From the IMG/VR virus record IMGVR_UViG_3300023070_000002, positions 8,465 to 72,464 of that record: a stretch of 64,000 nucleotides of DNA. One strand, 5' to 3'. The notes beneath the pieces were generated by a model that saw only the letters and a program-made list of their open reading frames with translations, was not told where the DNA came from and did not search any database. Within the stretch, counting starts at the first letter, position 1. Each line of letters starts with the position of its first letter. This stretch comes from a virus. Its lineage: Duplodnaviria; Caudoviricetes. A program made the position numbers and the translations under genes. Positions 4,959 to 42,355 of this stretch are shown in pieces.

Positions 4959-5450
4959 ATGAGAAAGTTCACACTAATTGCAGTGCTCTTTTGTGCAGCA
5001 CTCACAACAACCAACGCGCAGTCCATTTCCTACATTTCTAAAATGAACAACTACGTCAATCAGGCGCAAACGTTCACCCAATGGTATGCAACGCATGACG
5101 CAACTCCAAGTCAGGCTATGGCTTCTACAGAATTTAACGATATGCTGAATGCAGCAAAGGCGTTTACACAAGCGGAGCACGATGCGAATTTTCAGATTCT
5201 CATGGGCAATATTACTGAACTGGAAAAAATGGGTCATCCCGGGAACCCCGTGCAAGTAGCCCAATGTTTAATGACCGGCGTTGCAACGTTTGTGCAATGC
5301 AACCAACAGGCATTGAATTATCCAAATCCTCATGGCGCACTTTGGTTATGTGGGCGTGATTTAGCGAGCTGGAACCTGGCCTGTACCGGTCAGGGATCTT
5401 TCCCGCCGCCTACTGGTGACGAAACAAGCAATTTTCCTCCCGGGCGTTAA
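4959..5450 (+). CDS. secreted helical protein with four Cys in the mature part
   Basis: Signal peptide MRKFTLIAVLFCAALTTTNA|Q; Pro-rich tail. Confidence 0.7.
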   Translation: MRKFTLIAVLFCAALTTTNAQSISYISKMNNYVNQAQTFTQWYATHDATPSQAMASTEFNDMLNAAKAFTQAEHDANFQILMGNITELEKMGHPGNPVQVAQCLMTGVATFVQCNQQALNYPNPHGALWLCGRDLASWNLACTGQGSFPPPTGDETSNFPPGR

Positions 5451-5736: not shown

Positions 5737-6462
5737 CTACCCCAATACTTGATTGATCTTATTGTAGTATTTCAGGCGTACGTCGTAGCCGATAGCTGTA
5801 CGCTCTTTACTGCCTGTATTGATGACAGAGCACACCTGTTTAAAGGTGCCTGTTTTGGACAGTGAGATTAGGTTTCGGTATACGGCAAAGAACCAGCAAG
5901 CAGAATCGAGCGCGCCTGTATCGGTATCTTGCGCAAACTCTGCCGCCTCTTCCGGTGTCATACCTTTATATTTTCCATAGTCGGCATAAGTAGCACGTCC
6001 TGTTAGTCCTATGAACCCACCGCCTTTAAACGTCCACCCATCCCTTGTACCGGGAATATTTCCCATTCTTGACCCGTAGCAATCTATGGCAATCTCAACG
6101 GGCTTTCGGTGGAAGTACTTCGCCCGGTCGTTGGGGATATAAGGCGGCTTCGAAGTGGATGAATAACGGCCGGGGAAAGTATTCGCGAGCCCCTGCGCGC
6201 TGTAATTCATATTTTCTTCTTTGTGCGCAAATTCTCCACTCTCCTGAAGCAGGTTCGCCAAGAACATTCGAAAAGGCAATTTCTCTGTTATCCCATAGTG
6301 GGTACATAGTTCGTTGATTAAATCCGCTAGTTCCTTGCAACGTTCTTTACTTAACGTTGAGGTCACTGCGTCCAATTGTTCCCGGGTAATGAACATAGTC
6401 TTAGGCATTTTATCTATAGCAAAGGATGATATTAGGCGGGCGAACCAGCCGGGCATCTGCAT
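5737..6462 (-). CDS. glycoside hydrolase family 19 endolysin
   Basis: FLANLLQESGEF..EENMNYS..DGWTFKGGGFIGLTGRATY; first gene convergent with the early operon. Confidence 0.88.
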   Translation of the reverse strand: MQMPGWFARLISSFAIDKMPKTMFITREQLDAVTSTLSKERCKELADLINELCTHYGITEKLPFRMFLANLLQESGEFAHKEENMNYSAQGLANTFPGRYSSTSKPPYIPNDRAKYFHRKPVEIAIDCYGSRMGNIPGTRDGWTFKGGGFIGLTGRATYADYGKYKGMTPEEAAEFAQDTDTGALDSACWFFAVYRNLISLSKTGTFKQVCSVINTGSKERTAIGYDVRLKYYNKINQVLG

Positions 6463-6965
6463 TACACTGTCCTCCTTTTAACCGTCCACACAACCCCGCC
6501 GCCAAGTACAGCGGCCAGCCCGATGATGATCCAGAAGCGTATAATGGCTATCCTTCGCCATTTATCGTACTCCTTGGTCTTGGCTTCAAGTAAGGTGATT
6601 GCGCGCCGGGAATCGCCGCGGGCTAGCTCCAGGGCGGCTGTATTTTCAATCTCGATAGTATCGTGGATGGTAATACGCTCCACGGTTCGGATGCCTGGAA
6701 GTTGCACGGTCTTGTATATGCGTACCGTATCGTGGCTGTAAAGGGTATCGTAGAAGGTTGTCCCCTCTGTGTAAAAAGTATCGCGCCTGGTAATAGTATC
6801 GCGCCGGACCGTCCCAACCTTCGGAGGGTAAGTAATAGCGCAATACTCCTGCCCTACCTGCGGGAAGGTCGTAACGGCTTTCCCCAGTGCTATCTTAGCC
6901 TTTCGTTCAGAGTAGCAGGAGACGAAAAGAATGCACAGTATAGTGGCGGCAAGGGTCGTCCTCAT
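6462..6965 (-). CDS. probable unimolecular spanin
   Basis: Lipoprotein signal (ILFVSC) plus C-terminal TM helix (FWIIIGLAAVLGGGVVW); adjacent to endolysin. Confidence 0.7.
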   Translation of the reverse strand: MRTTLAATILCILFVSCYSERKAKIALGKAVTTFPQVGQEYCAITYPPKVGTVRRDTITRRDTFYTEGTTFYDTLYSHDTVRIYKTVQLPGIRTVERITIHDTIEIENTAALELARGDSRRAITLLEAKTKEYDKWRRIAIIRFWIIIGLAAVLGGGVVWTVKRRTV

Positions 6966-7258
6966 TTCTCCACTACTTTAACCGTTGAATCGCCGTCTTT
7001 CACCGCTTCTACCGTAGCCTCCGGTGCATTCTTGATCGTTATCTCTGCAGGAGTACCAAAGTTCTTTATAAGATAAGCAATACCACCGGCGAGGGCGGAT
7101 ATGACAATCAGTTTAACGTTGAATGTCAGCGAGCCCTGGTTAAGCGAGTCCATTACTATTGCAAGCACCGGCGTAATGACGGCCATCAGCAACCCGCGCG
7201 TGAAGTCGTTAAGGTTCAGGGAAAATTTTTTCGAGGTCGTAACCGTTTGTTGTGGCAT
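6962..7258 (-). CDS. putative holin
   Basis: 98 aa, two TM segments, charged C-terminus, in lysis cassette. Confidence 0.65.
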   Translation of the reverse strand: MPQQTVTTSKKFSLNLNDFTRGLLMAVITPVLAIVMDSLNQGSLTFNVKLIVISALAGGIAYLIKNFGTPAEITIKNAPEATVEAVKDGDSTVKVVEK

Positions 7259-7333
7259 ATAGATTATATTAGTTGAGACAATAGTATCAAGATAGCCATA
7301 ATTACCAGCATGGCAAAAAAGGCTTTAACGCCT

Positions 7334-7657
7334 TCATTTAATTTTTGCCAGTCGTTCCTTATATTCAAGTTCTTTCATTTTAATATCAATCTCTTCCTGG
7401 CGCTCTATTCGGAACTGCTTTTTGAAGTAGAAATAAACCCTTCCCGCTCCATAAACGGTACCCATTATAAAAGCGATCGCTATTTTAACATCGTTAATAT
7501 CACTCACAATTCCCGCCAGTATGCCGGTTATGCCAAGCAGATCAGCAACACCAATAATAAATTTTATATGCAACATTCTGACAGTCTTTAATAATGCGAT
7601 CGAAGGCAACACATACATAGCAATATGTTTTAGGGTATATGTTTTTCTATTTTCCAT
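7334..7657 (-). CDS. membrane protein (holin/antiholin-like)
   Basis: Hydrophobic segments followed by highly charged C-terminal coiled coil. Confidence 0.55.
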   Translation of the reverse strand: MENRKTYTLKHIAMYVLPSIALLKTVRMLHIKFIIGVADLLGITGILAGIVSDINDVKIAIAFIMGTVYGAGRVYFYFKKQFRIERQEEIDIKMKELEYKERLAKIK

Positions 7658-7986
7658 AGCGCATAGAATGATATAGTTCCTACTGACGCTGTAAGCAATA
7701 GAAATGCCACCATTACAGGTAATTCATCATTTATTGCAAACCCTGTATAGTGGTAAACTACCTCCCATATTGCCATCGCTATGGAGTAATAAAGAACTGG
7801 CTCAACAATTTTCCGACGTTCTTTATCGAGCATTGAGTAAAGAGATGCCCACGCAAACACCCCACCGTGAGCAATTACCTGCCACAAATAGTAGGCATTA
7901 CACCAATAAGACGTATTAAAATCCGCAAAGCAATGAAAGCAACCGTTGCCGATCAGGTAAAATAGTATAAAGGCTATTATAATCAT
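7630..7986 (-). CDS. polytopic membrane protein
   Basis: 118 aa with about 4 hydrophobic segments. Confidence 0.55.
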   Translation of the reverse strand: MIIIAFILFYLIGNGCFHCFADFNTSYWCNAYYLWQVIAHGGVFAWASLYSMLDKERRKIVEPVLYYSIAMAIWEVVYHYTGFAINDELPVMVAFLLLTASVGTISFYALWKIEKHIP

Positions 7987-8162
7987 GACCCGCTTGGTCT
8001 TGTTGGGTGAATCCCACCGCGCATAGCTTCATCTTCATCGGTATCGGAAACTACCCTTTCTTTTAGTTCATTAACAATTTCTTCAGCCGTAAACGGGTTT
8101 GCATAGTTTCCGTATTGTTCAATTAAGAACTTTGTGTCGTAAGTGTCAATAGTCTCTGGCAT
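7983..8162 (-). CDS. 59-aa acidic protein (not in ORF track)
   Basis: Manual translation MPETIDTYDTKFLIEQYGNYANPFTAEEIVNELKERVVSDTDEDEAMRGGIHPTRPSGS; ATGA overlap with 7630..7986. Confidence 0.6.
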   Translation of the reverse strand: MPETIDTYDTKFLIEQYGNYANPFTAEEIVNELKERVVSDTDEDEAMRGGIHPTRPSGS

Positions 8163-8182
8163 GGTATTTTGTTTTTAATAAT

Positions 8183-8518
8183 TTATTTTATAGTTTGAAT
8201 ATACGATATAATATCTTTTAATATCAGCAATATAACCGCTGCCGCAATTCCTGCTATCCACTTACGGTCTGCATCCCTTCTTAATTCTTTTTGCTTCAGC
8301 CTGTCCAACTGGAACATTACGCCGGTGTCCTGATTATAAAGCAAGTCATGCAGTTTGTCATATTCTGTATGAAGCCTTGCGTTTGCCCTTGATACTGTTC
8401 CTTTTTCGCTCTCCTGATCGGCCGCTATACGAAGCATTTGCAACCTGATATTTTCCAATTGCCCCGACATTTCAGTTTGCTTTATCGACAGTTCCTGTAT
8501 CTTATCGGCATCATTCAC
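8183..8518 (-). CDS. coiled-coil protein with C-terminal TM helix
   Basis: Heptad-rich body plus WIAGIAAAVILLIL; topology of XhlA-like/holin-associated proteins. Confidence 0.55.
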   Translation of the reverse strand: MNDADKIQELSIKQTEMSGQLENIRLQMLRIAADQESEKGTVSRANARLHTEYDKLHDLLYNQDTGVMFQLDRLKQKELRRDADRKWIAGIAAAVILLILKDIISYIQTIK

Positions 8519-8649: not shown

Positions 8650-9375
8650 TCACAATGAAGTTATTAAAAAGTTCGCTATAACTGAATCTCCCACCGCGTT
8701 CGGATGGAGTCCGTCAACGTCGAAGTATGTCGCATCCAGCCCGTTCATTGCTGCGTATACATTTCTGTACAAACAACCGTTTTCACTTGCAACATCCTCG
8801 GTTACTTTTACATAAGATAATGCCCGGGCTGCGTCTGCTGCAACAGAAGTTCCGCAGGCGCCAACATAAGCGTTCCATGAATATGGCTGATAAGGGGCAA
8901 GAAGAATAACCCGGCTGGGCGGCCACCCATAAGTTGATATTGCACTTGTTACGGCCGTCGTATAGGCTGTTTTAAATTCTGCTGGTGTTGATCCTGCACC
9001 CCCGGAGTTCCATCCTATATCATTTTCGCCTAAAGAAATAAATAGTGCCGAGTGTGTTGACGGATTGTAGGCTGGAATCGTAGCCGGATTAAAGACAACA
9101 ATCCCGCAGGAATTACTCATAGTTTGCCCGTCAATGCCCATATTGAGTTCTGTGGCGTATTTTGCGTGGCAAAATACACTAGTCCATTTCTGGTTACCAA
9201 GGTTAACAGGCAGCACTCCCCGGGTAATAGAATTGCCAATAAATACACAGGTTTTATCACAGAAATTAATCCCCGAAGCTCCAATACACGGGCTCCCAAC
9301 CGTTCCAATTACTATGTTTTGGCTTTTTGCTGAAAAAGAGATTATAAAAATAAGTATGGCGAGTAGGTATCTCAT
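8650..9375 (-). CDS. secreted SGNH/GDSL-family esterase
   Basis: VFIGNSIT, LGENDI and DGLHPN blocks; start reassigned to MRYLLAIL (ATGA overlap); signal peptide ..SAKS|Q. Confidence 0.8.
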   Translation of the reverse strand: MRYLLAILIFIISFSAKSQNIVIGTVGSPCIGASGINFCDKTCVFIGNSITRGVLPVNLGNQKWTSVFCHAKYATELNMGIDGQTMSNSCGIVVFNPATIPAYNPSTHSALFISLGENDIGWNSGGAGSTPAEFKTAYTTAVTSAISTYGWPPSRVILLAPYQPYSWNAYVGACGTSVAADAARALSYVKVTEDVASENGCLYRNVYAAMNGLDATYFDVDGLHPNAVGDSVIANFLITSL

Positions 9376-11900
9376 AAACCGTATTGCTGAGGGTAGTAAC
9401 ATTTTCCTGACACGAAAACATTCAGGTTTAAATAAAAGGTTGCGGTACTGGTTGTGCCGAAGGTGTGTCTGGTTGTCCACGTGTTGCCATCTGGTGATGT
9501 TTGGATTGTAAATAAATTACCCGTCCTGTTTAACATTACATAATCACCAACTGAAAGAATATATCCTGTGGGAGCCGGTGTGCCGTTAGTAACTGAATAT
9601 ACATCACCACCCGGATCGAGGTACATGCCATATTCATAATGTGTATAATCCTCATTTACGTTCGAGGAATTAAACCCTATTATTATACTTTCACCGTCAC
9701 TTGCCTGATATTTTATACGGTAACTTCCATCGCCTGTGAGTGTCTTTGAATCAAGCCCGTATTGATCCCAAAGTGTCCCTCCTACAGGAGTCCAGACATT
9801 TGAGGTTACGGCTATATTATATCGGGTTGTAAATGTTAAATCCTTCCAGCCTGTGTTTTGGCCGGTTATTCTGTAGTTACTTCTATAATTATATGCCTTG
9901 ATTGTTATCCTGTCCAGGGTATCAAATGCAGGCCATATCTGAACGCGGCCAATTGTTGTGTCAACCCTTATTCCATAGGTCGTGTCCGGTTGCATCAATA
10001 ACCCGTTTCGATAAAGTTCTATGTGCTTCCCTATAAAACCAGTATTTGTAATTGTTGAATCCCCTATTTCAGGGTAAGATGGCTGCCCAACTATAAAATT
10101 CATCGTTCCCGTACTGTCAGTTCTGCTTGGAGTTGTAAGAATAAAATTATTACCGGATACCCACGTTACTACCTGACCTGTAACACCCCCTGTCGTATTA
10201 ATGTTGCCAGCCTGTCTCCTTCCGACATTACCATGTATTGGATCCCATACTAATGCGCTGTCGGTAACTGCACCGGCTTGAACACTATCAATAATAAATC
10301 TGCCCAAGTGTGGTCTGGCTATAATTGAATCCGGATACACATAAAAGTCGGAAGCTGCGCCTGTTTTGAATGTTTGGAAACTATTGTAAGCCCCGATAGA
10401 TTGAATATCCGATATGTTGTCGCCAACCGTAGTTCTGAACAGCATTCCGCTTGATGCGGCAATATTAAATTCTCCATTATTATCAAATGTCAGATCATTG
10501 CCATCGCCGTCTACTGTTCTGTTCCCTGTTAATGTTCCGTCTGTATTATAGATGTTGGCAATCCCACTTTTCAATGTTTTAACCAATCTGCCAGATGGAG
10601 TAATTCCTACCATATAGGTGGTTGTATCGGTAAGCGACAGGTTTTTTGCTCGTATATCTCCTGCTGTATTGTTTAACAATAAAGAGTCGTACAAACTTAA
10701 CGAAGACATTGCACCTGAAGTTATTGAACCCCGTAAAAGCATATTATCCCCGGCATCATGCTGTACCTGTCCTGATACTGAAGATGTCCATTGCCCAACA
10801 TCGGTAATATCGAAATCGAACCCGCCGCCGTTAACTGACCTATTAGCTGTAAATATGCCATTACTATTGTATATGTTAGGCAATCCGCTCTTTAGTGTTT
10901 TTACCAACTTCCCATCTACACTAATACCTGTTATGTATTGTGTTGTATCGGATATTGGCAAAGTATTTATTCTTAAATCAGGTGTATTAAGATTAATCCG
11001 GTCAGCAGTAACACTAAATTGTCCAACATCGGAAAAGTTTATGTCGTTTCCCCCGGCATTAATATCAGTAGCATCAAGCAATGTCCCGCCCCATTGAATA
11101 TTGTTTCCTGTCTTTGTTAGACCATTATCGGCGGTTATTCCCCCTCCGATCAAAGAATCGACTACAAACCGTCTTGTTACTAAAGAATTGGGGGTAAATA
11201 ATGATCCGGGATATATAATCCGTCTTGTTGTTGATGTGGAATCGGCGGTTATAAAAAGAGTATTATTATTATTATTAAACCGGATTGGTGATGCAAAAAC
11301 ATCAAATTTTGCCAAGTCAGTAAATGTTAACCCGTATGTCTCATCCCCGGTCAGCGTCCTTTCGCTTGTTAAGGTTAAGTTGCTATTACCTATATTAGCT
11401 AAATCTTGTTTCAATGCAATAGTGCCTGAACTATCGGGTAAATTCCAACGTCTTGTTCCCGATAATGGATTAGGAGTAAGGTAGGCAGGAATTGTAGATT
11501 GTACAAATGTTAAGGTATCTGGCCTCATTTGCAACTCATCGCTCCCTTTATATACCAGTATCATATTATTGGTAGTATTGCCAATATCAGTCACCTGTTG
11601 CAGGTTTTGTGATCCACCACCACCAGAGCCGCTTCCAAGCTTAATCCACTTGTTTGCATTTATTGACCTGATCCAAATGGAAGTGTCGCCGCTGGTAAAT
11701 ATTTGTGCTCCCGGGTATTGCCTTATTCTTTCGAGGTTGGCCGCTGTGGTATCTGCATAAACATAATTAATGATACGCCCCTTTAAACCACCCCTGCTCG
11801 TAACTAATGTTGAGTCTGCGCCTAATGATTGACTTATTGGGTATTGACCCGATGCGTTTAAAAATATGAAAAACAATACAAAAGATAAAACCAGCTTCAT
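9372..11900 (-). CDS. tail fibre/receptor-binding-like protein with signal peptide
   Basis: Last large gene of the tail module; T/G/N-rich beta repeats (NIYNTDGTLTGNRTV); start MKLVLSF..NASG|Q. Confidence 0.65.
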   Translation of the reverse strand: MKLVLSFVLFFIFLNASGQYPISQSLGADSTLVTSRGGLKGRIINYVYADTTAANLERIRQYPGAQIFTSGDTSIWIRSINANKWIKLGSGSGGGGSQNLQQVTDIGNTTNNMILVYKGSDELQMRPDTLTFVQSTIPAYLTPNPLSGTRRWNLPDSSGTIALKQDLANIGNSNLTLTSERTLTGDETYGLTFTDLAKFDVFASPIRFNNNNNTLFITADSTSTTRRIIYPGSLFTPNSLVTRRFVVDSLIGGGITADNGLTKTGNNIQWGGTLLDATDINAGGNDINFSDVGQFSVTADRINLNTPDLRINTLPISDTTQYITGISVDGKLVKTLKSGLPNIYNSNGIFTANRSVNGGGFDFDITDVGQWTSSVSGQVQHDAGDNMLLRGSITSGAMSSLSLYDSLLLNNTAGDIRAKNLSLTDTTTYMVGITPSGRLVKTLKSGIANIYNTDGTLTGNRTVDGDGNDLTFDNNGEFNIAASSGMLFRTTVGDNISDIQSIGAYNSFQTFKTGAASDFYVYPDSIIARPHLGRFIIDSVQAGAVTDSALVWDPIHGNVGRRQAGNINTTGGVTGQVVTWVSGNNFILTTPSRTDSTGTMNFIVGQPSYPEIGDSTITNTGFIGKHIELYRNGLLMQPDTTYGIRVDTTIGRVQIWPAFDTLDRITIKAYNYRSNYRITGQNTGWKDLTFTTRYNIAVTSNVWTPVGGTLWDQYGLDSKTLTGDGSYRIKYQASDGESIIIGFNSSNVNEDYTHYEYGMYLDPGGDVYSVTNGTPAPTGYILSVGDYVMLNRTGNLFTIQTSPDGNTWTTRHTFGTTSTATFYLNLNVFVSGKCYYPQQYGL

Positions 11901-11902
11901 AA

Positions 11903-12151
11903 TTAACAACAATTTGATTTAGTATATAAAATAATTAATTTATTATTTGTAACCCATGTACCTATTTGAATGGTTATTGTTCCTGTTGTACTGTCAAATA
12001 CGTAATCCGGGGAAGGCTCCAAGTCGTTTTGCGGTACGTTGTCGATGATTATTAAATGCACAATTGCATTACGTATAATCTCACTGGTAAAATAATTAGT
12101 CCCTAATAATGGTCCTCCGGGGAAACCCGCCACAACTTTAAGCGAAGTCAT
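11903..12151 (-). CDS. small tail-associated protein
   Basis: 82 aa; shares motif pattern with neighbours; no signal peptide. Confidence 0.55.
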   Translation of the reverse strand: MTSLKVVAGFPGGPLLGTNYFTSEIIRNAIVHLIIIDNVPQNDLEPSPDYVFDSTTGTITIQIGTWVTNNKLIILYTKSNCC

Positions 12152-12193
12152 TAATGTCGAATTTTATTTGTTTAAAATGGTTAAAAAGTTTCT

Positions 12194-12763
12194 TTATAAT
12201 TGAGGATATATTTGGAATATTTCGCCTACTTGTGCCGGGCTTTCCGGGTACGTAGGGCTGTTTACATCATCTGACAAGAACGACATAATCCCATTTACTT
12301 TGTCCCAAGAATAATACGATGCGCCGTTTGGTACTACTGACTGAGTTATTCCATTTCTTACAAACAAAACATTATACCCTATAAACAATGGTATGTGTAC
12401 GTCAGGAGACCCATCGCTAACAAATGAACTACTACTAACAATAAAATCGTAAGGGGCTGGATAACCACCCGGATTTATTGGGGTAACTGTTCCGCCACCT
12501 GCTTGTCCAGAAATCGCTTGCGCCTCCTGCCCCCACATGTTCGTTAGCCAAATGAGATAATTTGCCGTTGCTCGTAATGATTCATTAGTTTGTGCGCCCC
12601 CGTCATATCCAAACCTCAAAGCATCCGTAACCATAGCTATTGTAACGGCAGATACCGGCGCTTTCGTCCCCCCAAATAAAGTACCACGACTATTATAATT
12701 AGCCGCCAAATACGTACTTATGTCGCCGCGTATTGTTGTTTCTGGTACTGTTGGATATGCCAT
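12194..12763 (-). CDS. tail hub/fibre-attachment-like protein
   Basis: Start reassigned to MAYPTV (1 nt after upstream stop); C-terminal domain similar to a domain in 9372..11900. Confidence 0.55.
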   Translation of the reverse strand: MAYPTVPETTIRGDISTYLAANYNSRGTLFGGTKAPVSAVTIAMVTDALRFGYDGGAQTNESLRATANYLIWLTNMWGQEAQAISGQAGGGTVTPINPGGYPAPYDFIVSSSSFVSDGSPDVHIPLFIGYNVLFVRNGITQSVVPNGASYYSWDKVNGIMSFLSDDVNSPTYPESPAQVGEIFQIYPQL

Positions 12764-12764
12764 T

Positions 12765-13274
12765 TTAGAAAAATACATTTTGGTTTTGCTGCATCCATAT
12801 TTCACGATCAAAACAGGCTTGTGCCGCAGATAAATCGCTACCGTATGTTATCGCATTGATACCGGCAATTAAGTTTGTCCAAAATATCGCCAGATTGCCC
12901 GAATAATTTGTGTCTTGATAAATTCCGGGAGTTAGCCCCTGCAACCCTATGAGATAGTAAAAAAACTGCATCCCAAATTGACACAGTGCAAAAGTGTTCT
13001 CCACTTCATCAACCACTACATTAGTTACCGTCAGCCATTGAACTTTAATGAGTGCCGCCGTGTCGTTTACTAAAATATCCAACGTAATTGAGGATTGAGC
13101 AAGCGGCCATTCTGTGTAGTTTACCGTCCCGTCCCCGGTCAAGTATGTGCCATCGCTTTGGGAAACAAAGACGCGCCGTTGAGTGATTGTCCCGCTTAAC
13201 CCGGTCGAATCATCCGTAATGGTGACATTAGCCGGAGTACTTGCGCTTTGACTAACTTGGAAGGATGCGGGCAT
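12765..13274 (-). CDS. tail hub-like structural protein
   Basis: Beta-rich N-terminus (VTITDDSTG); position after ejection genes. Confidence 0.5.
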   Translation of the reverse strand: MPASFQVSQSASTPANVTITDDSTGLSGTITQRRVFVSQSDGTYLTGDGTVNYTEWPLAQSSITLDILVNDTAALIKVQWLTVTNVVVDEVENTFALCQFGMQFFYYLIGLQGLTPGIYQDTNYSGNLAIFWTNLIAGINAITYGSDLSAAQACFDREIWMQQNQNVFF

Positions 13275-26391: not shown

Positions 26392-26814
26392 TTATTTTTT
26401 CTTAGATTTCTGCACTGACTTATCGCTTTTTGATGGCTTCTCATCGGATGCCAGTTTATGAAGTGTTTCTTCTTCATTATCCGGTGCATCGGAATCGGGC
26501 AGCGCATCAATTGTTTCATCTACCAATTCAATGAGATCGGCATTTTCAACGGTATGCCCGGCTTTATTATCCGTAGAATTGGTATGCTCTGAACTGTTCT
26601 TGGCTGCCATACAAAAACCTTGTGGAAAGTTTTGCAACTCAACTGGCAGGTGCGTAGAAAGACCGACAAAATATTCCATTTGCTCCGAAGTAATTCTTTC
26701 CGTTGGTTCTACTTCTGCGAACCATTTTTCATACTTTGATTTTACGATGCTATCGGGTATCTTGTTTATAAAAACAAGGAGAGAGGCTATGGCATTTGGC
26801 GTTAAAGTGTACAT
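26392..26814 (-). CDS. hypothetical protein with acidic/basic tail
   Basis: 140-aa ORF in structural operon. Confidence 0.5.
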   Translation of the reverse strand: MYTLTPNAIASLLVFINKIPDSIVKSKYEKWFAEVEPTERITSEQMEYFVGLSTHLPVELQNFPQGFCMAAKNSSEHTNSTDNKAGHTVENADLIELVDETIDALPDSDAPDNEEETLHKLASDEKPSKSDKSVQKSKKK

Positions 26815-26833
26815 AATATTTATAATTTAATTT

Positions 26834-27469
26834 TTACGTTGTTTTTACTGCTGGCTGGCCGTCATTCGAAGCATCTACAGGTTGATTTCTTTCCAATAGA
26901 AGTTGTTGTTGAATATAGGACACAACGATTGGCAAACTATCGTCAGGCAGGTTTAATGTACTGTTTAGATTCGTACTGTCACCCCCGCTAATCAATGTTA
27001 CCGTTGCTGTATAATCTGTCATTATGATAGTAGTTATCACAAAACAAAATTCACCTTCCGGGTAAGCCAGCACTTTATTAGGTATGACTCTCATTGACCT
27101 GTAATAGCCAACTTGGTTTTCGCTTAACAGGACAGCGGGATAGCTTATGTTGCTATTACTGTCCTTAAATAATATCCTCGAAATACCTTCTGTGTTTCCT
27201 ATTGATAATGGTATTTGCGGCAATGTAAACTTATATAAAAACTGTTCATCTTTTGTGACAGTAAGTCCTTTAAAGGTTGAATAGAAGCTATTGTTTACAA
27301 AACCTATCCCTTCAAGTTGAATGTTTTCTTTATAGTTGTTTTTGGCGGCCACTGCAATGCCCTGATTAATCCAAAGGTTAATAAGATTGTCGGTTATATC
27401 AGCCTCATCGACAGGGAACCCGCCGTATACCTGCCGCCTCAACATTTCTATAAAAGTCCTTCTGGTCAT
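26834..27469 (-). CDS. tail ring/adaptor protein
   Basis: MTRRTFIEML.. N-terminal helix; LNLPDD..IVVSYI C-terminus; about 210 aa. Confidence 0.6.
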   Translation of the reverse strand: MTRRTFIEMLRRQVYGGFPVDEADITDNLINLWINQGIAVAAKNNYKENIQLEGIGFVNNSFYSTFKGLTVTKDEQFLYKFTLPQIPLSIGNTEGISRILFKDSNSNISYPAVLLSENQVGYYRSMRVIPNKVLAYPEGEFCFVITTIIMTDYTATVTLISGGDSTNLNSTLNLPDDSLPIVVSYIQQQLLLERNQPVDASNDGQPAVKTT

Positions 27470-37636: not shown

Positions 37637-38407
37637 TTAATCTTCATAAACCCGTTCTCTAGCCCACTCTTGCATTAATTTTGGAAGAGGCTCATCAATC
37701 AATTTCAAATCTTCTTTAGAGAACCATAGGTAAGGGTCGAACATTTCGCACTGATCTAGCTTCTTATCATAATCAATCATTTCAAATACACCCTGTTGCA
37801 TATTCTTAATCTTGTTAATCATAACTTCCCGTTTTCTTACAAAGCCATTATGGTAAATCCTTATTTGGTTTAAATAGGAAATATCTGCAAACGGGACAGC
37901 CAACGATTCAGCATCGCCATGCGCTTTATAATCTGTTTTAGCTAACCTTATAATGTCTGTCGAGCATGGCAGCCTTTCTACTGGCACATCAAGTTTGTAA
38001 TAAGGGGATGCCCATAAATTTACTCTTTTAATCATATACCCCGGTGCGTCCATTGATATTGCCTCTCTTATAAAAGGATAGCTTTTTTCATGAATTATTT
38101 CGTCACACTGCACATACAAGTGATATTCATATCCTGCTTCCCTTGCTGCCTGAATAGCTATATCTGTAAAATAGCATAGTTTGGCATATCCTGTACCTTT
38201 TTGTCCATCCCATTCCTGTTTAGTCCGGGTTATTATTGTCAAATTCTCACTCGGCAATGTGTTCAATATCTCGGCAGTTCCATCATCGCTTCCTGCTTCC
38301 ACTACGAAAACATGGTCACAACACTCAAGCAGGCTTAGGATTGTTTCTTTAAAACTGTAATCGTACTGTACGCCATTCCTTATAAATGTAGTTCCTGCTA
38401 GTTTCAT
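37637..38407 (-). CDS. glycosyltransferase family 2
   Basis: ETILSLLECCDHVFVVEAGSDDGT and YVQCDE (DxD-like). Confidence 0.85.
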   Translation of the reverse strand: MKLAGTTFIRNGVQYDYSFKETILSLLECCDHVFVVEAGSDDGTAEILNTLPSENLTIITRTKQEWDGQKGTGYAKLCYFTDIAIQAAREAGYEYHLYVQCDEIIHEKSYPFIREAISMDAPGYMIKRVNLWASPYYKLDVPVERLPCSTDIIRLAKTDYKAHGDAESLAVPFADISYLNQIRIYHNGFVRKREVMINKIKNMQQGVFEMIDYDKKLDQCEMFDPYLWFSKEDLKLIDEPLPKLMQEWARERVYED

Positions 38408-39075
38408 TCGCTTTTCTTTTTTAGCAATGCTATGTAAAATCCATTCCAGTACGAATTATTATCGTGGCCGCCATCAGGTCTTGAAATATCCGATTGCAAA
38501 TGCTTTTCAAATAATTTTTCTAATTGGCATTCCCTTATCCCGTCTTGTGTACCCTTCTGAACTTCAGACCAATCGTAGTCATCGCACAAATAAATAAATT
38601 CATCTGCCATAGCATCAATATAATAAGTAAGCGCCTTTTTTTGTGCCGTTTCGCTATGGTCTCCGTCATACAAATAAATGTCAACGTTTTTAGGAATATC
38701 CGATATGTCTAATTCAAAAGAATCGCTTATCACCAACTTTAGTTCACACTTATCTGGTTTATGTAACTGGGAGTTATTCAAAAAATCCACCCTAGCACCT
38801 TCTCCATTCATGTGATCGGATTCAAAACTATCGACCGCTGTTATAAATTCCAAGTTACTATTCCCCCGTATTGAGGCAGTGAATGTACCACCTCGATGAA
38901 CCCCGCACTCTAAATAATTACGGCCTAACGCGCCAATATTGTTTAATAAATGACGTATTTTAAGACTTGTTAGTGCTGGCACATCATAGGTTAGGTGCCC
39001 ATGTGGTGACTCCATTTTATCTGCTTTTTCGATAGCCGCCTTTATCATTCCTATTTTTTCTTCAGTACTTACCAT
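38404..39075 (-). CDS. class I SAM-dependent methyltransferase (Methyltransf_24-like)
   Basis: NYLECGVHRGGT; AVDSF; DIYLYDGDH; LCDDYDW. Confidence 0.8.
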   Translation of the reverse strand: MVSTEEKIGMIKAAIEKADKMESPHGHLTYDVPALTSLKIRHLLNNIGALGRNYLECGVHRGGTFTASIRGNSNLEFITAVDSFESDHMNGEGARVDFLNNSQLHKPDKCELKLVISDSFELDISDIPKNVDIYLYDGDHSETAQKKALTYYIDAMADEFIYLCDDYDWSEVQKGTQDGIRECQLEKLFEKHLQSDISRPDGGHDNNSYWNGFYIALLKKKSE

Positions 39076-39644
39076 TGTATACTTTTTAAACTTTCGTTTA
39101 TCTTTTGACTTGTATAGTTGTCTTTGTTATGCCAGAAGAAAAATGCACCGAAGGAGGTATGAAACCTTGGCATTACAATAAATGAAAAATAGTCCGGGAA
39201 ATGATAGTTTATTATCTCTGGAGTCCACCCTGATTTATGCGTATCGGGATGAATAGCGTTCTTGTCAACCATATTTTCCCCCAATGGAGTGAATAGGACT
39301 TGGCAATCTGAACGTTGCTTCATCAGGCTTATAAGTTCTAATCCCTTATCGCTTGTTAAATGTTCAATCCCATCGCTTGAAATCATTATATCCACCACTT
39401 CTTTATTGTGTGCTAAATAATCGAATACGTCGCTTAAGACAAAAAACTGTTGCTCTCTCTTATCGTCTAATTTTCTATCCTGAATATCTACGTAGGTTCG
39501 TTTTTTAAATCCCATCTGCGGAATATATGGCGAATGATAGCACATTAAATCCACTACTGATTTGTCAGATACATCGCCACAAATAAGTTTCATTATCTGC
39601 AAGTATATTTCTCCACTACCAATTTTATTTATTTCTATTGTCAT
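39069..39644 (-). CDS. methyltransferase-fold protein
   Basis: SVVDLMC..YVDI..DIMISSDGIEHL..PDTHKSGWT pattern; glycine-poor motif I. Confidence 0.6.
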   Translation of the reverse strand: MTIEINKIGSGEIYLQIMKLICGDVSDKSVVDLMCYHSPYIPQMGFKKRTYVDIQDRKLDDKREQQFFVLSDVFDYLAHNKEVVDIMISSDGIEHLTSDKGLELISLMKQRSDCQVLFTPLGENMVDKNAIHPDTHKSGWTPEIINYHFPDYFSFIVMPRFHTSFGAFFFWHNKDNYTSQKINESLKSIQW

Positions 39645-41073
39645 GGAGCTTTTTTATGCCGTTGACTATTTGTTCGATCTTAAATATGCTACAAAGTGGA
39701 CGGCTTTCGTCTATGTAGCATTTTACCCCTGAAGTACCAATAACACTATTCCAGCAAAATGGCTTGTCGCAAACATTTTGATCATGGTTGTGAATTATAA
39801 CTTTATCTGAAAGGTCAGGGTGTATTACTTTTGGGTCAACGCTGCCAAAGCAAATGACTGACGGAACTTTAAAAGCGCTGGCTATGTGCGAAATTCCCGA
39901 ATCAATCCCTATCATCATAGACGCCCCCGCTACAACGTAACACAGAAAGTTTTCGTTGGTACAATTTACCTGAATGGCGTTCTTAATTATTGCTGTGTCG
40001 TCTTTACCAACTTGTATAGGTGTATATCCTAATTCTATAACATAGTCAACTACTTTTCCCCAATCAACTCCGTGGATACGTCTGCCCCCTTGTGGCCTAT
40101 TATCGGTATGAAAAACTACATAGTTCTTAAATAGCCTTGTTGCTCCATCTATGGGAAAGCCTAACGATAAGGTTGGATTTTTTATGTAAGGCCTATACTC
40201 TTCTTCCAACACTCCAGAATATTCAAAATAGGTTTTCAAATGAAGTTCACGCGGTTTACTTTCGTATGAAAGATCCAAGTTAATATACTTCGCGTTTTCT
40301 AATAATCTCTGGTCAACGGTTTGAAGTGAGAATACGGGGAAATAATGATTTATAAATAAGTAAAGAAATTGCGGTAAGGTATCAAGAACAATCCTATACC
40401 CTTTATCGTGGAAGTATTGCATAACCGGCTCTACTTGAACTACATCACCTAAGGCGGCTTTACGGGATATTACTATTGTAGGCTTAAACTTTTCATGAAA
40501 ATTACCATGAAATGAAAAAGTAGGTTGAACAGGTGTTTTTAACTCATAGGAATATTTATCCGCCAACTCAACCGGAGCGAATTTAATACCATACTTTTCT
40601 TCAAGGTACATTTTATAAACGATGCAAATAGAATGATCTTCGGGGTGTAGTACACTTATTGTTTCATCACTGGCAAGTATTTCATGTAGTCGCTTTGAGC
40701 GAAACGAACTCCCACCATTGCCTACTTGCCTATCATGGTCAAATACCCAACTAGCGCCAATATAATCATACTCAAAATACCGGTCGTCCCATTGACTACC
40801 GTCAATTATATACCCGTCCCCTTGAATAACACAGAAATAATCGGTTGGGATGTATTTAACCAACTGCTTAACCATAAACTCACTATATGCTCGTTTGGAT
40901 GTGATTGAAGGTATCTGAACAACCTCGATCCCATCCAATTTTATCGGAATATCCGTTAAGAATAAAACGCGCTCAAATTGAATTTCAGACACGCTTTTAT
41001 TTATGGCAGACACGGCAGACCCATATCCATAGCAATCAACGCAAATAAGGCTTACATTATTTAGTTTTCGCAT
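39625..41073 (-). CDS. DUF5672-like domain fused to GT9-like glycosyltransferase
   Basis: N-half IQGDGYI..YDYIGASW..VGNGGSSFRSK; C-half RKAALGDVV..IGIDSGISHIASAFKVPSVICFG. Confidence 0.8.
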   Translation of the reverse strand: MRKLNNVSLICVDCYGYGSAVSAINKSVSEIQFERVLFLTDIPIKLDGIEVVQIPSITSKRAYSEFMVKQLVKYIPTDYFCVIQGDGYIIDGSQWDDRYFEYDYIGASWVFDHDRQVGNGGSSFRSKRLHEILASDETISVLHPEDHSICIVYKMYLEEKYGIKFAPVELADKYSYELKTPVQPTFSFHGNFHEKFKPTIVISRKAALGDVVQVEPVMQYFHDKGYRIVLDTLPQFLYLFINHYFPVFSLQTVDQRLLENAKYINLDLSYESKPRELHLKTYFEYSGVLEEEYRPYIKNPTLSLGFPIDGATRLFKNYVVFHTDNRPQGGRRIHGVDWGKVVDYVIELGYTPIQVGKDDTAIIKNAIQVNCTNENFLCYVVAGASMMIGIDSGISHIASAFKVPSVICFGSVDPKVIHPDLSDKVIIHNHDQNVCDKPFCWNSVIGTSGVKCYIDESRPLCSIFKIEQIVNGIKKLHDNRNK

Positions 41074-41183
41074 TAGGATTTTGTTTAAACATATTATACT
41101 TCCCTTTCATCATTTTATAAGTTTCTTTTAGCGTCAACGGATTATTTTGACTCATGGCTAACCTTGCCAGTTTGCGCAATCCC

Positions 41184-42005
41184 TTAGCTTTTTTGCTGTT
41201 CATTATTAAAAAGTTTATAAACATAGTACTGAACGGCTAGCTGATTATAAAAATCATATGCTTTTTCCCCAATAGGTATTACATTGGGATTTAATGGAAA
41301 ACATTCAAGTATTCTCGGAGTTTTGGTGGCTTCAGCCAGTTGGAAGCAAAAACTTTGACACCCCAGAAAGAACTTGCTTCCGCTTATTATTTTTGCCAAC
41401 TCATAAAAATTATCGACCTGTAACAGGGGTATTTCTAAGTCCCATTCTCTACAAAACAAATCTCTTTCTTTTTGTAGTCCAGCAAATGCAAGTTTGTGCT
41501 GGTATTGTTTTAAAAAGTGATATGTGATAATAGGGTTTCGATGCCGTTGTGTAAAATTTATAATTCCCTTGTCGCTATATAAATTCGAAATAGTCTCTGG
41601 GATTTCGATCCATTTTTTTGATAAATCTGAAGTCATTTCAGGAAATACATAACTATACCACCTGTTTAAACTCCCATTAGGCTGATTAGTGAACCGGTCT
41701 TGCCTTATAAGGTCAAAATCAAATATAACATCTTCCCCTTTATACTTTCTGAAGTCTTCAATATAGGGTTGCGATTTTATCAATGGGCGAAGCATATCAA
41801 ACATATACTCGTTCATGCAAACTGGTTCGCCGTCTTTTGTTTCGAATGGGTGAACGCTTCCCAAGTAGGAAGATCCTATCATCCCAATTCTTTGATAAAT
41901 AACAGCCTTTTTACCCGTTTGGTGCCACAACTGTTTAATACCCGCCAAGAAACTAATTAAGTCTCCTGCGGGGCTGCTTGTTTTAAACGTAATAAAGTCT
42001 GACAT
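41184..42005 (-). CDS. GT-B/GT9-like glycosyltransferase
   Basis: SSPAGDLIS N-terminus; LAKIISGSKFFLGCQSFCFQLAEA C-terminal motif. Confidence 0.6.
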   Translation of the reverse strand: MSDFITFKTSSPAGDLISFLAGIKQLWHQTGKKAVIYQRIGMIGSSYLGSVHPFETKDGEPVCMNEYMFDMLRPLIKSQPYIEDFRKYKGEDVIFDFDLIRQDRFTNQPNGSLNRWYSYVFPEMTSDLSKKWIEIPETISNLYSDKGIINFTQRHRNPIITYHFLKQYQHKLAFAGLQKERDLFCREWDLEIPLLQVDNFYELAKIISGSKFFLGCQSFCFQLAEATKTPRILECFPLNPNVIPIGEKAYDFYNQLAVQYYVYKLFNNEQQKS

Positions 42006-42020
42006 TTTTTAGACAATATT

Positions 42021-42028
42021 CAAAAATA
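42021..42028 (-). promoter_or_regulatory. Bacteroidota -7 promoter element for the glyco cluster
   Basis: TATTTTTG (TAnnTTTG) on - strand, 15 nt upstream of the start at 42005. Confidence 0.5.
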
Positions 42029-42079
42029 CATTACTTTTACCTACGATATTTTTAATTAAAAACAATCAAATTTTTTAAC

Positions 42080-42337
42080 ATGGCTCAAATTCTTTCCGTA
42101 AGCGTTTATGGCCGCAACAATCAGAACTACGGCACTTCACAGGGTCGGACTATTGGCCTTCCTGTAAGCCGCCTAATGATTGAAAGCGCCCCGGCAAATT
42201 CCGTTTACAATGGGGTAACAACTGTAACCCAAATCACTGTACTGCCAACAGGGGATGTATACCCGGGTTCTCCTTCAGTTTCGGTGTTTTTTACACCGAC
42301 TGCACTCGCTACTGTTATTACTGCTGCGAACGCTTAG
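42080..42337 (+). CDS. small T/V/A-rich virion-like protein on the opposite strand
   Basis: 85 aa; A-rich initiation region; composition like 27484..27756. Confidence 0.65.
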   Translation: MAQILSVSVYGRNNQNYGTSQGRTIGLPVSRLMIESAPANSVYNGVTTVTQITVLPTGDVYPGSPSVSVFFTPTALATVITAANA

Positions 42338-42355
42338 GCTCGTTTCTAATCCGCC

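What the first reader, a model, noticed from the sequence alone, without database searches (positions are those of the whole stretch)
9372..11900. Exported, heavily O-glycosylatable tail fibre: possible periplasmic maturation of a virion protein
Seen: the only large fibre-like gene of the tail module starts with a Sec signal peptide (MKLVLSFVLFFIFLNASG|Q). By manual count it has 16 D-(S/T)-(A/I/L/V/M/T) motifs in 842 aa (DST x4, DTT x5, DTL x2, DSL x2, DSI, DSV, DSA); 16 of its 19 D-S/T pairs fit the motif. Controls without signal peptides have far fewer: about 4 in the 1138-aa muzzle, 4 in the 785-aa portal, 1 in the 483-aa capsid protein. Established: this triplet is the sequon of the Bacteroidota general O-glycosylation system, which acts outside the cytoplasm, and Gln at +1 is the Bacteroidota signal-peptidase 'Q-rule'. 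Tailed-phage fibres normally fold and attach in the cytoplasm. Inference: the fibre is exported, glycosylated by host machinery and joins virions during or after lysis, giving a host-mimicking glycan coat. Alternative: it is a non-virion periplasmic/surface protein, such as a receptor blocker.
Basis: partly seen in the sequence, partly recalled or inferred. Interest (0 to 1): 0.92.

Follow-up and report, generated by a model that had tools for sequence, protein, structure and literature searches.

The report
Exported, sugar-tagged phage tail fibre
The only tail-fibre-like host-recognition protein of this 72-kb phage of Bacteroidota starts with its host's secretion signal and carries three times the chance number of the host's sugar-attachment motif (none of them in its sugar-binding head), so it very probably matures outside the cytoplasm, a route I found described in no paper for tailed phages.

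Summary
Observation confirmed in full. Window 9372-11900 (-) encodes an 842-aa protein with a textbook Sec/SPI leader (cleavage ...NASG|QYP) and 16 D-(S/T)-(A/I/L/V/M/T) sequons against 4.9 +/- 2.0 in shuffles (p<1/2000).

Both features are conserved. In a family of 574 homologues, 80 of 80 full-length leaders fit the -3/-1 rule with Gln at +1. Leader-bearing members have sequon O/E 2.9. Homologues with ordinary fibre N-termini have O/E about 1, as do the leaderless virion fibres of PhicrAss001.

Sequons sit on the N-domain and shaft (O/E 4.7). They are purged from the ConA-like lectin head (O/E 0.12).

The gene holds the fibre slot of a crAss-like/Pachyviridae-like virion operon, just before the lysis cassette, and is translationally coupled to an exported SGNH esterase. 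Export and host O-glycosylation are therefore well supported.

Attachment to virions is inferred only. The best support is an analogy: in the distantly related cultured Cellulophaga phage phi18:3, three leader-bearing proteins in the same slot are recorded as virion proteins by MS/MS.

I found no paper describing this route. This scan has already noted the same phenomenon on other DNA (54 notes, at least 45 genomes).

The parts
9372..11900 (-). Gene for the 842-aa exported fibre-like protein (P0001), stop codon included
   Evidence: 100% match in G000
11847..11900 (-). Signal peptide, residues 1-18 (n-region MK, h-region LVLSFVLFFIFL, c-region NASG, cleavage before Q19)
   Evidence: Sequence. 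Family statistics: 80 leaders of about 19 aa; -1 is A/S/G in 78; -3 is S/G/V/A in 77; net n-region charge is +2 in 70; one acidic residue in all leaders together; Gln at +1 in all.
11622..11846 (-). Conserved N-terminal module, residues 19-93. It has an extended conserved segment (QYPxxQxLGxDSTLVxSRGGLKGR, low pLDDT) and a small beta domain (residues 45-90, pLDDT about 90). It carries sequons D29-S-T and D50-T-T.
   Evidence: Alignments; models. It is shared by most of the 574 homologues and by 9 phage loci. Fold matches are only weak, to tailspike N-terminal and trimerisation domains (Z<=4.4; leads).
10116..11621 (-). Shaft, residues 94-595. It has low confidence as a monomer, two internal repeats of about 60 aa (around 310-370 and 418-478), and 9 sequons.
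   Evidence: the NIYNxDGTLTGNR-type repeat is shared with homologues, including the leaderless P0016
9885..10115 (-). Small beta domain, residues 596-672, with 5 sequons. It is distantly related to the C-terminal domain of the upstream 205-aa protein.
   Evidence: model (pLDDT >90); hhalign A5 against A3: probability 60%, E 8.4e-5, 66 columns
9375..9854 (-). C-terminal concanavalin-A-like lectin/SPRY/CBM66-type beta-sandwich head, residues 683-842, with no sequon
   Evidence: pLDDT 90-98. Foldseek matches SPRY domains, CBM66 and VIP36 at E about 1e-5. Weak F5/8-type-C hit. Head sequon O/E is 0.12 across leader-bearing homologues.
8650..9375 (-). SGNH/GDSL esterase with its own leader (MRYLLAILIFIISFSAKS|QN). 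Its ATG overlaps the fibre stop codon (ATGA).
   Evidence: Pfam PF13472 E 1.5e-12; sequence of the junction. Some homologues fuse a GDSL domain into the fibre itself.
11903..13274 (-). Three small leaderless genes directly upstream (169 aa, 205 aa, 82 aa). The first two keep synteny with the fibre in 6 related loci.
   Evidence: The 173-aa family was not found in the sequence held of the second phage type, records about 29-66% complete.
5737..8518 (-). Lysis cassette directly downstream: small membrane proteins, a sequon-rich lipoprotein (6462-6965) and the endolysin (5737-6462)
   Evidence: phrog_181 endolysin E 2.5e-43; lipoprotein with 4 sequons against 0.6 expected; its homologues have 5 against 0.4

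Best explanation
P0001 is the phage's modular receptor-binding fibre, and it is made as a secretory preprotein.

Proposed steps:
1. Late in infection it is translated from the virion operon.
2. The host Sec system exports it. Signal peptidase I cuts it before Gln19, which the host's glutaminyl cyclase would turn into pyroglutamate.
3. In the periplasm the Bacteroidota general O-glycosylation system glycosylates it at up to 16 D-S/T-hydrophobic sites. All of these lie on the N-terminal module, the shaft and the small beta domain. The ConA-like lectin head is kept free of sites.
4. A leader-bearing SGNH esterase, translationally coupled to the fibre, is exported with it.
5. When the adjacent lysis cassette breaks the envelope, the glycosylated fibre most likely docks onto cytoplasmically built particles through its conserved N-terminal module.

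Shown here: the leader, the sequon statistics, their co-variation, the domain architecture and the gene position. Inferred: actual export, cleavage and glycosylation (about 0.8), and virion attachment (about 0.55).
For: (1) Leader. It shows textbook SPI features in P0001 and in 80 of 80 full-length leaders of the N-domain family. In the wider set of 163 proteins, 137 of 138 hydrophobic N-termini are followed closely by Gln. The next Met is residue 113, so the conserved module cannot be made without the leader.

(2) Sequons. 16 observed against 4.85 expected, p<1/2000. Across the family O/E is 2.5, z=14, in regions that are not homologous to each other, and control motifs are flat. In the related phage loci, leader-bearing proteins have O/E 258/76 and the others 101/118.

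(3) Natural control. Twelve homologues with ordinary leaderless N-termini sum to about 52 observed against about 54 expected, while leader-bearing ones have 1351 against 467. The MS- and cryo-EM-verified leaderless fibres gp22-26 of PhicrAss001 have 16 against about 13 (PMC10172136).

(4) Partition. The head has O/E 0.12 (4 against 32) and the rest O/E 4.7 (338 against 72.5) in leader-bearing homologues. This is as expected if the sites are really used.

(5) Established rules. The motif is glycosylated only in non-cytoplasmic proteins, is nearly fully occupied, and engineered or foreign motifs are glycosylated too (review PMC12871550). For the Q-rule and pyroglutamate see PMC5837995 and PMC10653852.

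(6) Fibre nature.
- It holds the last position of the virion operon, before the lysis genes, in 9 related phage loci.
- It has a conserved N-module and highly variable C-terminal parts of 790 to 2324 aa.
- Family members carry GDSL esterase, Peptidase_S74, K1-lyase_C and pectate-lyase domains.
- The head has a lectin fold. Homologues of the head sit on leaderless proteins, some with fibre-like N-termini as judged by eye.
- There is no other fibre candidate in the 72-kb genome.

(7) Virion precedent. The phage is distantly related to Cellulophaga phage phi18:3 (terminase 27% identity, E 2e-43; portal E 6e-25). That phage's gp085, gp086 and gp087 all have leaders with Gln at +1 and lie just before its lysis genes. 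Its record annotates them as virion proteins 'based on experimental MS/MS proteomics analysis'.
Against: - There is no experimental datum for this protein or its homologues.
- SignalP could not be run.
- The host is inferred, not known. The evidence is the Q-rule leaders, kinship to Cellulophaga and crAss-like phages, and one related contig binned with a Sediminibacterium MAG.
- The phi18:3 proteins are not sequence homologues and are sequon-poor (3 against about 10 expected). MS detection in a purified lysate does not exclude co-purifying envelope proteins.
- The N-module also occurs in a second phage type in whose held sequence (records about 29-66% complete) the neighbouring 173-aa family was not found. 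No conserved docking partner has been identified.
- Post-lysis assembly would be diluted and inefficient.
Confidence: 0.58

Rival explanations
1. The protein is exported and glycosylated but is not a virion part. Fibre and esterase would act in the envelope of the infected cell or as free proteins after lysis. Possible roles are masking or destroying receptors (superinfection exclusion, or keeping progeny from sticking to debris), remodelling the envelope for lysis, or display on the cell surface as adhesive fibres, like the Bdellovibrio MAT proteins.
For: - All the export evidence fits this reading equally well.
- The gene abuts the lysis cassette.
- No docking partner was identified.
- The N-module occurs in phages in whose held sequence the neighbouring 173-aa family was not found.
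- Bdellovibrio MAT fibres have the same layout (leader, conserved beta-rich N-domain, mosaic trimeric fibre) and work on a cell surface (PMC10769870).
- Prophages of P. gingivalis carry Q-rule genes that were read as envelope modifiers (PMC10367356).
Against: - The phage would then have no recognisable receptor-binding protein at all.
- Sizes up to 2324 aa and a tailspike-type domain repertoire are typical of virion proteins.
- No T9SS C-terminal domain or lipobox is present to take it across or onto the outer membrane. A surface polysaccharide would therefore be out of reach before lysis.
- The gene is co-transcribed with late virion genes.
- The phi18:3 analogues are recorded in virions.
Confidence: 0.27
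2. The N-terminus is not used for export. It would be a hydrophobic docking or trimerising helix buried in the tail, by analogy with residues 1-26 of PhicrAss001 gp22 that sit in the fibre hub. The D-S/T-hydrophobic excess would then have a structural cause, or would be a target of the phage's own cytoplasmic glycosyltransferases.
For: - In PhicrAss001 the fibre's N-terminal 26 residues insert into the hub (PMC10172136).
- This phage clade conserves a glycosyltransferase cluster (GT2-like, DUF5672/GT9 fusion, methyltransferase) upstream of the terminase.
Against: - The leaders share only physico-chemical properties, with -3/-1 small residues and Gln at +1, as signal peptides do. Such a sequence would be recognised by the host Sec pathway in any case.
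- PhicrAss001 gp22 has no such N-terminus.
- Sequon excess tracks the leader and is absent from leaderless homologues that share the same shaft repeats and head.
- The excess is shared by lipoproteins and membrane lysis proteins of this phage, its relatives and crAss001.
- The motif excess is specific to Asp in first place and a hydrophobic residue in third.
Confidence: 0.1
3. It is a captured bacterial surface-protein gene (a moron) or an assembly artefact with no role in the phage's own cycle.
For: One related contig is binned in a bacterial MAG. Many homologues come from metagenomes without known context.
Against: - Synteny inside virion operons is conserved in 9 loci, 8 of them IMG/VR viral contigs.
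- Gene packing is tight on both sides: 2 nt upstream and an ATGA overlap downstream.
- A pattern scan of one genome for each of 185,579 species found the N-module once, on a phage-like 11-kb contig.
Confidence: 0.03

Closest known systems
Leader-bearing virion proteins gp085, gp086 and gp087 of Cellulophaga phage phi18:3 (Pachyviridae; NC_021794)
   Same: The phage is a distant relative (terminase E 2e-43, portal E 6e-25, genome about 71 kb). It has three large proteins with Sec/SPI leaders and Gln at +1, encoded just before the lysis genes. The record annotates them as virion structural or tail proteins from MS/MS.
   Different: There is no detectable sequence similarity to P0001 and no Pfam domain. 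They hold 1 sequon each against 3.0-3.7 expected (3 against about 10 in all). I found no paper that comments on their leaders.
Tail fibres of cultured crassviruses (PhicrAss001 gp22-gp26; PMC10172136)
   Same: Both are podovirus-type phages of Bacteroidota with a muzzle protein. Both have fibre or tailspike genes with depolymerase or lectin domains next to the lysis genes.
   Different: gp22-26 have no leader and no sequon excess (16 against about 13). The intact N-terminus of gp22 (residues 1-26) docks in the THA2-THB hub. BLAST finds no similarity.
Substrates of the Bacteroidota general O-glycosylation system and of the Q-rule (PMC12871550, PMC5837995, PMC10653852)
   Same: An SPI leader, Gln at +1, and the motif D-S/T-A/I/L/V/M/T in soluble extracytoplasmic regions.
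   Different: All known substrates are cellular proteins. I found no phage structural protein reported as a substrate.
Bdellovibrio bacteriovorus mosaic adhesive trimer (MAT) fibres (PMC10769870)
   Same: The layout is the same: a signal peptide, then a conserved beta-rich N-terminal domain, then a phage-tail-fibre-like trimeric shaft with mosaic tips, some ending in S74 chaperones. They show that such fibres can fold after export.
   Different: They are bacterial predator proteins displayed on a cell surface. They belong to another phylum, have no sequon system, and homology was not tested.
Filamentous-phage pIII and pVIII (own knowledge)
   Same: They are virion proteins, including the receptor-binding one, that are made with Sec leaders and mature outside the cytoplasm.
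   Different: Those virions are assembled at and extruded through the membrane. Tailed phages assemble in the cytoplasm.

Membership tests
Sec/SPI signal peptide obeying the Bacteroidota Q-rule | Positively charged n-region, uncharged h-region of about 8-17 residues, small residues at -3 and -1 | tested here: met
   P0001 reads MK / LVLSFVLFFIFL / NASG. The same holds in 77-78 of 80 family leaders.
Sec/SPI signal peptide obeying the Bacteroidota Q-rule | Gln at +1 of the mature protein | tested here: met
   Q19 is invariant in alignments A1, A2 and A4.
Sec/SPI signal peptide obeying the Bacteroidota Q-rule | Call by a trained predictor (SignalP 6, DeepTMHMM) | not testable with these tools
   No such predictor was on hand; my own heuristic was used.
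Sec/SPI signal peptide obeying the Bacteroidota Q-rule | Actual cleavage and pyroglutamate formation | not testable with these tools
   Needs N-terminal mass spectrometry.
Substrate of the Bacteroidota general O-glycosylation system | Motif D-(S/T)-(A/I/L/V/M/T) in soluble regions, above chance | tested here: met
   16 against 4.85 +/- 2.04; family z=14.
Substrate of the Bacteroidota general O-glycosylation system | Non-cytoplasmic location | tested here: inconclusive
   Inferred from the leader only.
Substrate of the Bacteroidota general O-glycosylation system | The host belongs to Bacteroidota and has the pathway | tested here: inconclusive
   The evidence is indirect: Q-rule leaders, kinship to a Cellulophaga phage, and one related contig in a Sediminibacterium MAG. 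No direct host link was found.
Substrate of the Bacteroidota general O-glycosylation system | Glycan found on the Ser/Thr | not testable with these tools
   Needs glycoproteomics.
Phage tail fibre / receptor-binding protein | Encoded in the virion module, distal to the tail genes | tested here: met
   The order is huge ejection protein, 169 aa, 205 aa, 82 aa, fibre, esterase, lysis genes. It is conserved in relatives.
Phage tail fibre / receptor-binding protein | Conserved N-terminal module with mosaic, fast-changing C-terminal parts that hold glycan-binding or glycan-cleaving domains | tested here: met
   (GDSL, S74, K1-lyase_C, pectate lyase); ConA-like head
Phage tail fibre / receptor-binding protein | Homotrimeric fibre | not tested
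   The shaft has low pLDDT as a monomer, which would fit an intertwined trimer. The N-domain gives weak matches to trimerisation domains. No homotrimer was folded on its own.
Phage tail fibre / receptor-binding protein | Physically part of the virion | not testable with these tools
   Only an analogy is available: phi18:3 gp085-087.
Crassvirales gp22-type tail fibre | Sequence or profile similarity to PhicrAss001 gp22-26 | tested here: not met
   BLASTP finds nothing at E<=1 that involves P0001. tblastn of P0001 against 50,697 phage records finds no match.
T9SS cargo protein | C-terminal sorting domain (PF18962 / TIGR04183) | tested here: not met
   No Pfam or NCBIfam family was reported for P0001, and no T9SS domain for any of the 45 family members scanned.
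Lipoprotein (SPII) | Lipobox with Cys at +1 | tested here: not met
   The only Cys is residue 834.

The most novel reading that the evidence does not exclude
A whole clade of tailed phages of Bacteroidota builds its host-recognition gear in a compartment separate from the rest of the particle. Fibres, and the enzymes that go with them, are exported by Sec, capped with pyroglutamate and coated on the shaft, but not on the lectin head, with the host's own O-glycan. They meet the cytoplasmic particles only at lysis. The clade's conserved glycosyltransferase cluster might even alter the lipid-linked glycan that ends up on the fibre.
Probability: 0.45. Interest if true: 0.92.

Novelty: new variant of a known kind. 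Interest (0 to 1): 0.8.

Why it matters
Tailed-phage assembly is taught as a wholly cytoplasmic process. A fibre that matures in the periplasm and is glycosylated by host machinery would add a new assembly route and a new class of host-derived virion modification.

Possible consequences:
- Fibre stability. Pyroglutamate and glycans protect extracytoplasmic proteins.
- Host range and adsorption.
- Recognition of phages by lectins or immune systems.
- Annotation. Pipelines often take a signal peptide as evidence against a structural role.

It is testable now, because Cellulophaga phage phi18:3 and its host are cultured and virion MS data exist. The sequon statistic (leader-bearing O/E about 3, leaderless about 1, lectin head about 0.1) is also a simple computational marker. 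It can find such fibres in viromes and assign their phages to Bacteroidota hosts.

Tried and rejected
I used the search for related loci instead.
- tblastn of P0001 and of the capsid protein against 50,697 phage records gave no match.
- Alignment A1 was too diverse for a locus scan; A2 worked.
- The pattern scan of IMG/VR (back-translated peptide patterns) did not find the C-terminal module.
- Complex prediction was run with the 169-aa protein, the 205-aa protein and three copies of fibre residues 19-110. It was unreachable twice, then gave 'no answer' with score 0.13 against a mark of 0.32. This is no verdict either way.
- I considered that the 211-aa and 140-aa genes (26834-27469, 26392-26814) are the THA/THB fibre hub, on size and position. 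A PDB sequence search gave no crAss001 hit and BLAST against crAss001 gave nothing. The idea is left untested.
- The N-domain fold search gave only Z<=4.4. Many tailspike N-terminal regions and collagen trimerisation domains were among the rows, but all were below any safe threshold. Atlas leads were all below 0.9.
Only the 205-aa protein gets moderate profile support.
- The esterase has no PDB or NCBIfam match.
- The Holmfeldt 2013 PNAS paper is not held. The MS/MS statement rests on the GenBank record's own note.
- Seven completed literature searches found no paper that describes an exported or host-glycosylated tail fibre of a tailed phage.


Full report
WHAT IS THERE

The window is bases 8465-72464 of a 72,464-base IMG/VR virus record that CheckV rates as complete. 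On the minus strand it carries a virion operon:
- terminase (phrog_6681, E 7e-66) and portal (phrog_6547, E 1e-61)
- capsid and ring-type structural proteins
- a 1138-aa muzzle-like protein (phrog_14478, E 2e-34; weak crAss_MUZ_C hit)
- 228-aa, 479-aa and 2139-aa proteins, then small genes of 169, 205 and 82 aa
- the gene in question at 9372-11900
- an SGNH/GDSL esterase (PF13472, E 1.5e-12)
- small membrane proteins, a lipoprotein and an endolysin (phrog_181, E 2.5e-43)

The packing is tight. The 82-aa ORF ends 2 nt before the fibre ATG. The esterase ATG overlaps the fibre stop codon as ATGA. No other gene of the genome looks like a fibre or tailspike.

CHECK OF THE OBSERVATION

The protein has 842 aa and begins MK-LVLSFVLFFIFL-NASG|QYP. 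They account for 16 of 19 D-S/T pairs. Shuffles of the protein give 4.85 +/- 2.04, and none of 2000 reaches 16.

Of 47 ORFs in the window, the only other significant one is the lipoprotein at 6462-6965 (4 against 0.6, p=0.0015). The muzzle (4 against 3.8), the 2139-aa protein (2 against 6.0), the capsid protein (1 against 1.4) and the portal (4 against 1.6) are ordinary.

THE FAMILY

An exhaustive profile-free search found 574 homologues, 282 of them at E<=1e-10. They share either the N-terminal module (residues 1-95, leader included) or the C-terminal 260-300 residues, and the parts in between differ.

Among 80 members of the N-module family with a full leader:
- The leader is about 19 residues long.
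- Position -1 is A, S or G in 78.
- Position -3 is S, G, V or A in 77.
- The n-region has net charge +2 in 70.
- There is one acidic residue in all leaders together.
- Gln is at +1 in all.

The next Met in P0001 is residue 113, so the conserved module cannot be translated without the leader. These are the properties of Sec/SPI signal peptides and of the Bacteroidota Q-rule (PMC5837995 and PMC10653852).

SEQUONS TRACK EXPORT

Outside the shared N-module, 20 homologues hold 193 sequons against 76 expected (z=14). The reversed motif (O/E 1.09), E/N/K/Q in first place (0.57-0.97) and D-S/T followed by a non-permitted residue (0.76) show no excess.

Over the 163 proteins fetched:
- Those with a hydrophobic N-terminus have 1351 against 467 expected (O/E 2.9).
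- Twelve homologues with ordinary, complete-looking leaderless N-termini sum to about 52 against about 54. Some of these N-termini look fibre-like by eye.
- Members whose leader is merely truncated by the gene call stay enriched.

In nine related phage loci, leader-bearing proteins have 258 against 76 and all others 101 against 118. The fibre homologues there have 25 against 8.6, 32 against 6.6, 18 against 8.1, 33 against 7.7, 21 against 3.9 and 31 against 8.5. The lipoprotein next to the endolysin has 5 against 0.4 in each locus.

In PhicrAss001 the fibres gp22-26 are virion parts by cryo-EM and mass spectrometry (PMC10172136). They have no leader and 16 sequons against about 13 expected. Its membrane-anchored lysis protein gp27 has 4 against 0.3.

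The sites are also partitioned. In leader-bearing homologues that carry the same head domain, the head has 4 sequons against 32 expected (O/E 0.12). The rest has 338 against 72.5 (O/E 4.7). P0001 itself has none after residue 660. Selection for sites on the stalk and against sites in the binding head is what one expects if the sites are really glycosylated. One caveat: the heads are homologous, so the proteins are not independent samples.

WHY EXPORT IMPLIES GLYCOSYLATION

According to the 2025 review (PMC12871550):
- The motif is modified only in non-cytoplasmic proteins and is generally nearly fully occupied.
- Engineered motifs are glycosylated.
- Proteins moved between species are glycosylated by the recipient.
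- The glycan is built on undecaprenyl phosphate at the cytoplasmic face, flipped, and transferred in the periplasm.

A leader-bearing protein with 16 sites in a Bacteroidota host should therefore be heavily glycosylated. This is inference; nothing here measures it.

WHAT KIND OF PROTEIN IT IS

The AlphaFold2 model (45-row alignment) shows these parts:
- a leader helix
- a conserved but unstructured segment (residues 19-44)
- a small confident beta domain (45-90)
- a long stretch (94-550) of low confidence as a monomer
- a confident small beta domain (596-672)
- a very confident beta-sandwich (685-842)

Foldseek matches the last domain to SPRY domains, CBM66 and the L-type lectin VIP36 at E about 1e-5. 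That is the concanavalin-A-like lectin fold.

Family members carry GDSL esterase, Peptidase_S74 chaperone, K1-lyase_C, pectate-lyase-like and PTL_trimer domains. This is the repertoire of phage tailspikes and fibres. None has a T9SS sorting domain.

The N-domain gives only weak structural matches (Z<=4.4), many of them to N-terminal regions of tailspikes and to collagen trimerisation domains. This is inconclusive.

The small beta domain is distantly related to the C-terminal domain of the upstream 205-aa protein (hhalign probability 60%, E 8.4e-5). At the place where the exported copy has an invariant G-D-S-T, the aligned segment of the leaderless copy has no D-S/T sequon.

CONTEXT IN RELATIVES AND THE HOST

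The N-module was found in 8 IMG/VR contigs and in one 11-kb contig binned with a Sediminibacterium MAG.
- Six loci keep the order huge protein, about 175 aa, about 173 aa, fibre, then lipoprotein and endolysin.
- Three loci belong to another phage type. There the fibre follows the head genes and is itself followed by a second leader-bearing protein of 567-646 aa. The 173-aa family was not found in the sequence held of these records, which are about 29-66% complete.

So the module is mobile between phage types, and I could not name its docking partner.

The host is inferred to be a member of Bacteroidota. The grounds are the Q-rule leaders, the kinship below, and the MAG bin.

THE VIRION QUESTION

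A lead from earlier notes of this scan pointed to Cellulophaga phage phi18:3, and I checked it. Its genome has 71,443 bp. Its terminase (27% identity over 649 aa, E 2e-43), its portal (E 6e-25) and several structural proteins match this window.

Its gp085, gp086 and gp087 (547, 785 and 559 aa) lie just before the lysis genes. All begin with classical leaders that end ...GYS|Q...VSA|Q and ...LNA|Q. The record annotates them as virion structural or tail proteins 'based on experimental MS/MS proteomics analysis'.

This is the only experimental hint that leader-bearing proteins of this slot end up in particles. It has limits:
- It is an analogy, not homology.
- It does not say whether the leader is removed.
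- Those three proteins hold only 3 sequons against about 10 expected.

Bdellovibrio MAT fibres show that S74-type trimeric fibres with a leader and a conserved N-domain do fold after export (PMC10769870). They work on a cell surface, which keeps the non-virion reading alive.

VERDICT

Export and host O-glycosylation are well supported (about 0.8), by three independent lines:
- the anatomy of the leader
- the co-variation of leader and sequons
- the partition of sites between stalk and head

That the protein is the phage's receptor-binding fibre is well supported by position, architecture and the lack of any alternative. That it joins virions after lysis is an inference (about 0.55). The main rival is an exported non-virion lectin-and-esterase pair (about 0.27).

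I found no paper describing such a route for a tailed phage. P. gingivalis prophage genes that obey the Q-rule have been noted, but as unknown envelope modifiers (PMC10367356). This scan has noted the same phenomenon before in at least 45 other genomes.

LIMITS

- SignalP was not available.
- The single complex prediction gave no verdict.

Noticed in passing
window 6462-6965 (-): A 167-aa lipoprotein (leader MRTTLAATILCILFVS|C) lies directly upstream of the endolysin. It has 4 sequons against 0.6 expected. Its homologues in L002, L003, L005 and L009 have 5 against 0.4-0.5 each. It is probably a glycosylated spanin-type lysis protein.
   Followed up: partly
window 8650-9375 (-): An SGNH/GDSL esterase with its own Q-rule leader is translationally coupled (ATGA) to the fibre. 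In other family members the esterase domain is fused into the fibre. It could ride on the fibre, or it could de-O-acetylate peptidoglycan or a surface glycan. It has no PDB or NCBIfam match.
   Followed up: partly
window 37637-42930 (-): A glycan-building cluster (GT2-like, methyltransferase, DUF5672/GT9 fusion, cupin sugar isomerase) lies upstream of the terminase. The DUF5672/GT9 fusion is 49-53% identical (E about 1e-160) in three related phages, far better conserved than their structural proteins. It might remodel a lipid-linked glycan of the host.
   Followed up: partly
L016:2892-8584 (Cellulophaga phage phi18:3 gp085-087): Three MS/MS-annotated virion proteins carry Sec leaders with Gln at +1. 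They are sequon-poor (1 each against 3.0-3.7 expected), the opposite of the family studied here.
   Followed up: partly
L012:14094-14696 (PhicrAss001 gp27): The membrane-anchored 'lysis regulatory protein' of crAss001 has 4 sequons against 0.3 expected. Sequon loading of extracytoplasmic phage proteins therefore also occurs in cultured crassviruses.
   Followed up: no
L006:15169-17109 and L008:13413-15116: In the second phage type the leader-bearing fibre is followed at once by another leader-bearing protein of 567-646 aa and by small lipoproteins. This forms a whole exported gene block.
   Followed up: no
window 4959-5450 (+): A 163-aa protein on the opposite strand has a Q-rule leader (MRKFTLIAVLFCAALTTTNA|QS), no sequon and no family match. 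It may be an exported early or moron gene.
   Followed up: no
window 12194-12778 (-) and 9885-10115 (-): The C-terminal 70 aa or so of the leaderless 205-aa tail protein resemble the fibre's small beta domain (hhalign probability 60%, E 8e-5). The exported copy has an invariant G-D-S-T; the aligned segment of the leaderless copy has no D-S/T sequon.
   Followed up: partly
window 52012-52230 (+): A 72-aa ORF with a lipoprotein-type leader (MKTFYLVLILFFTA|C) lies among the replication genes. Its role is unknown.
   Followed up: no
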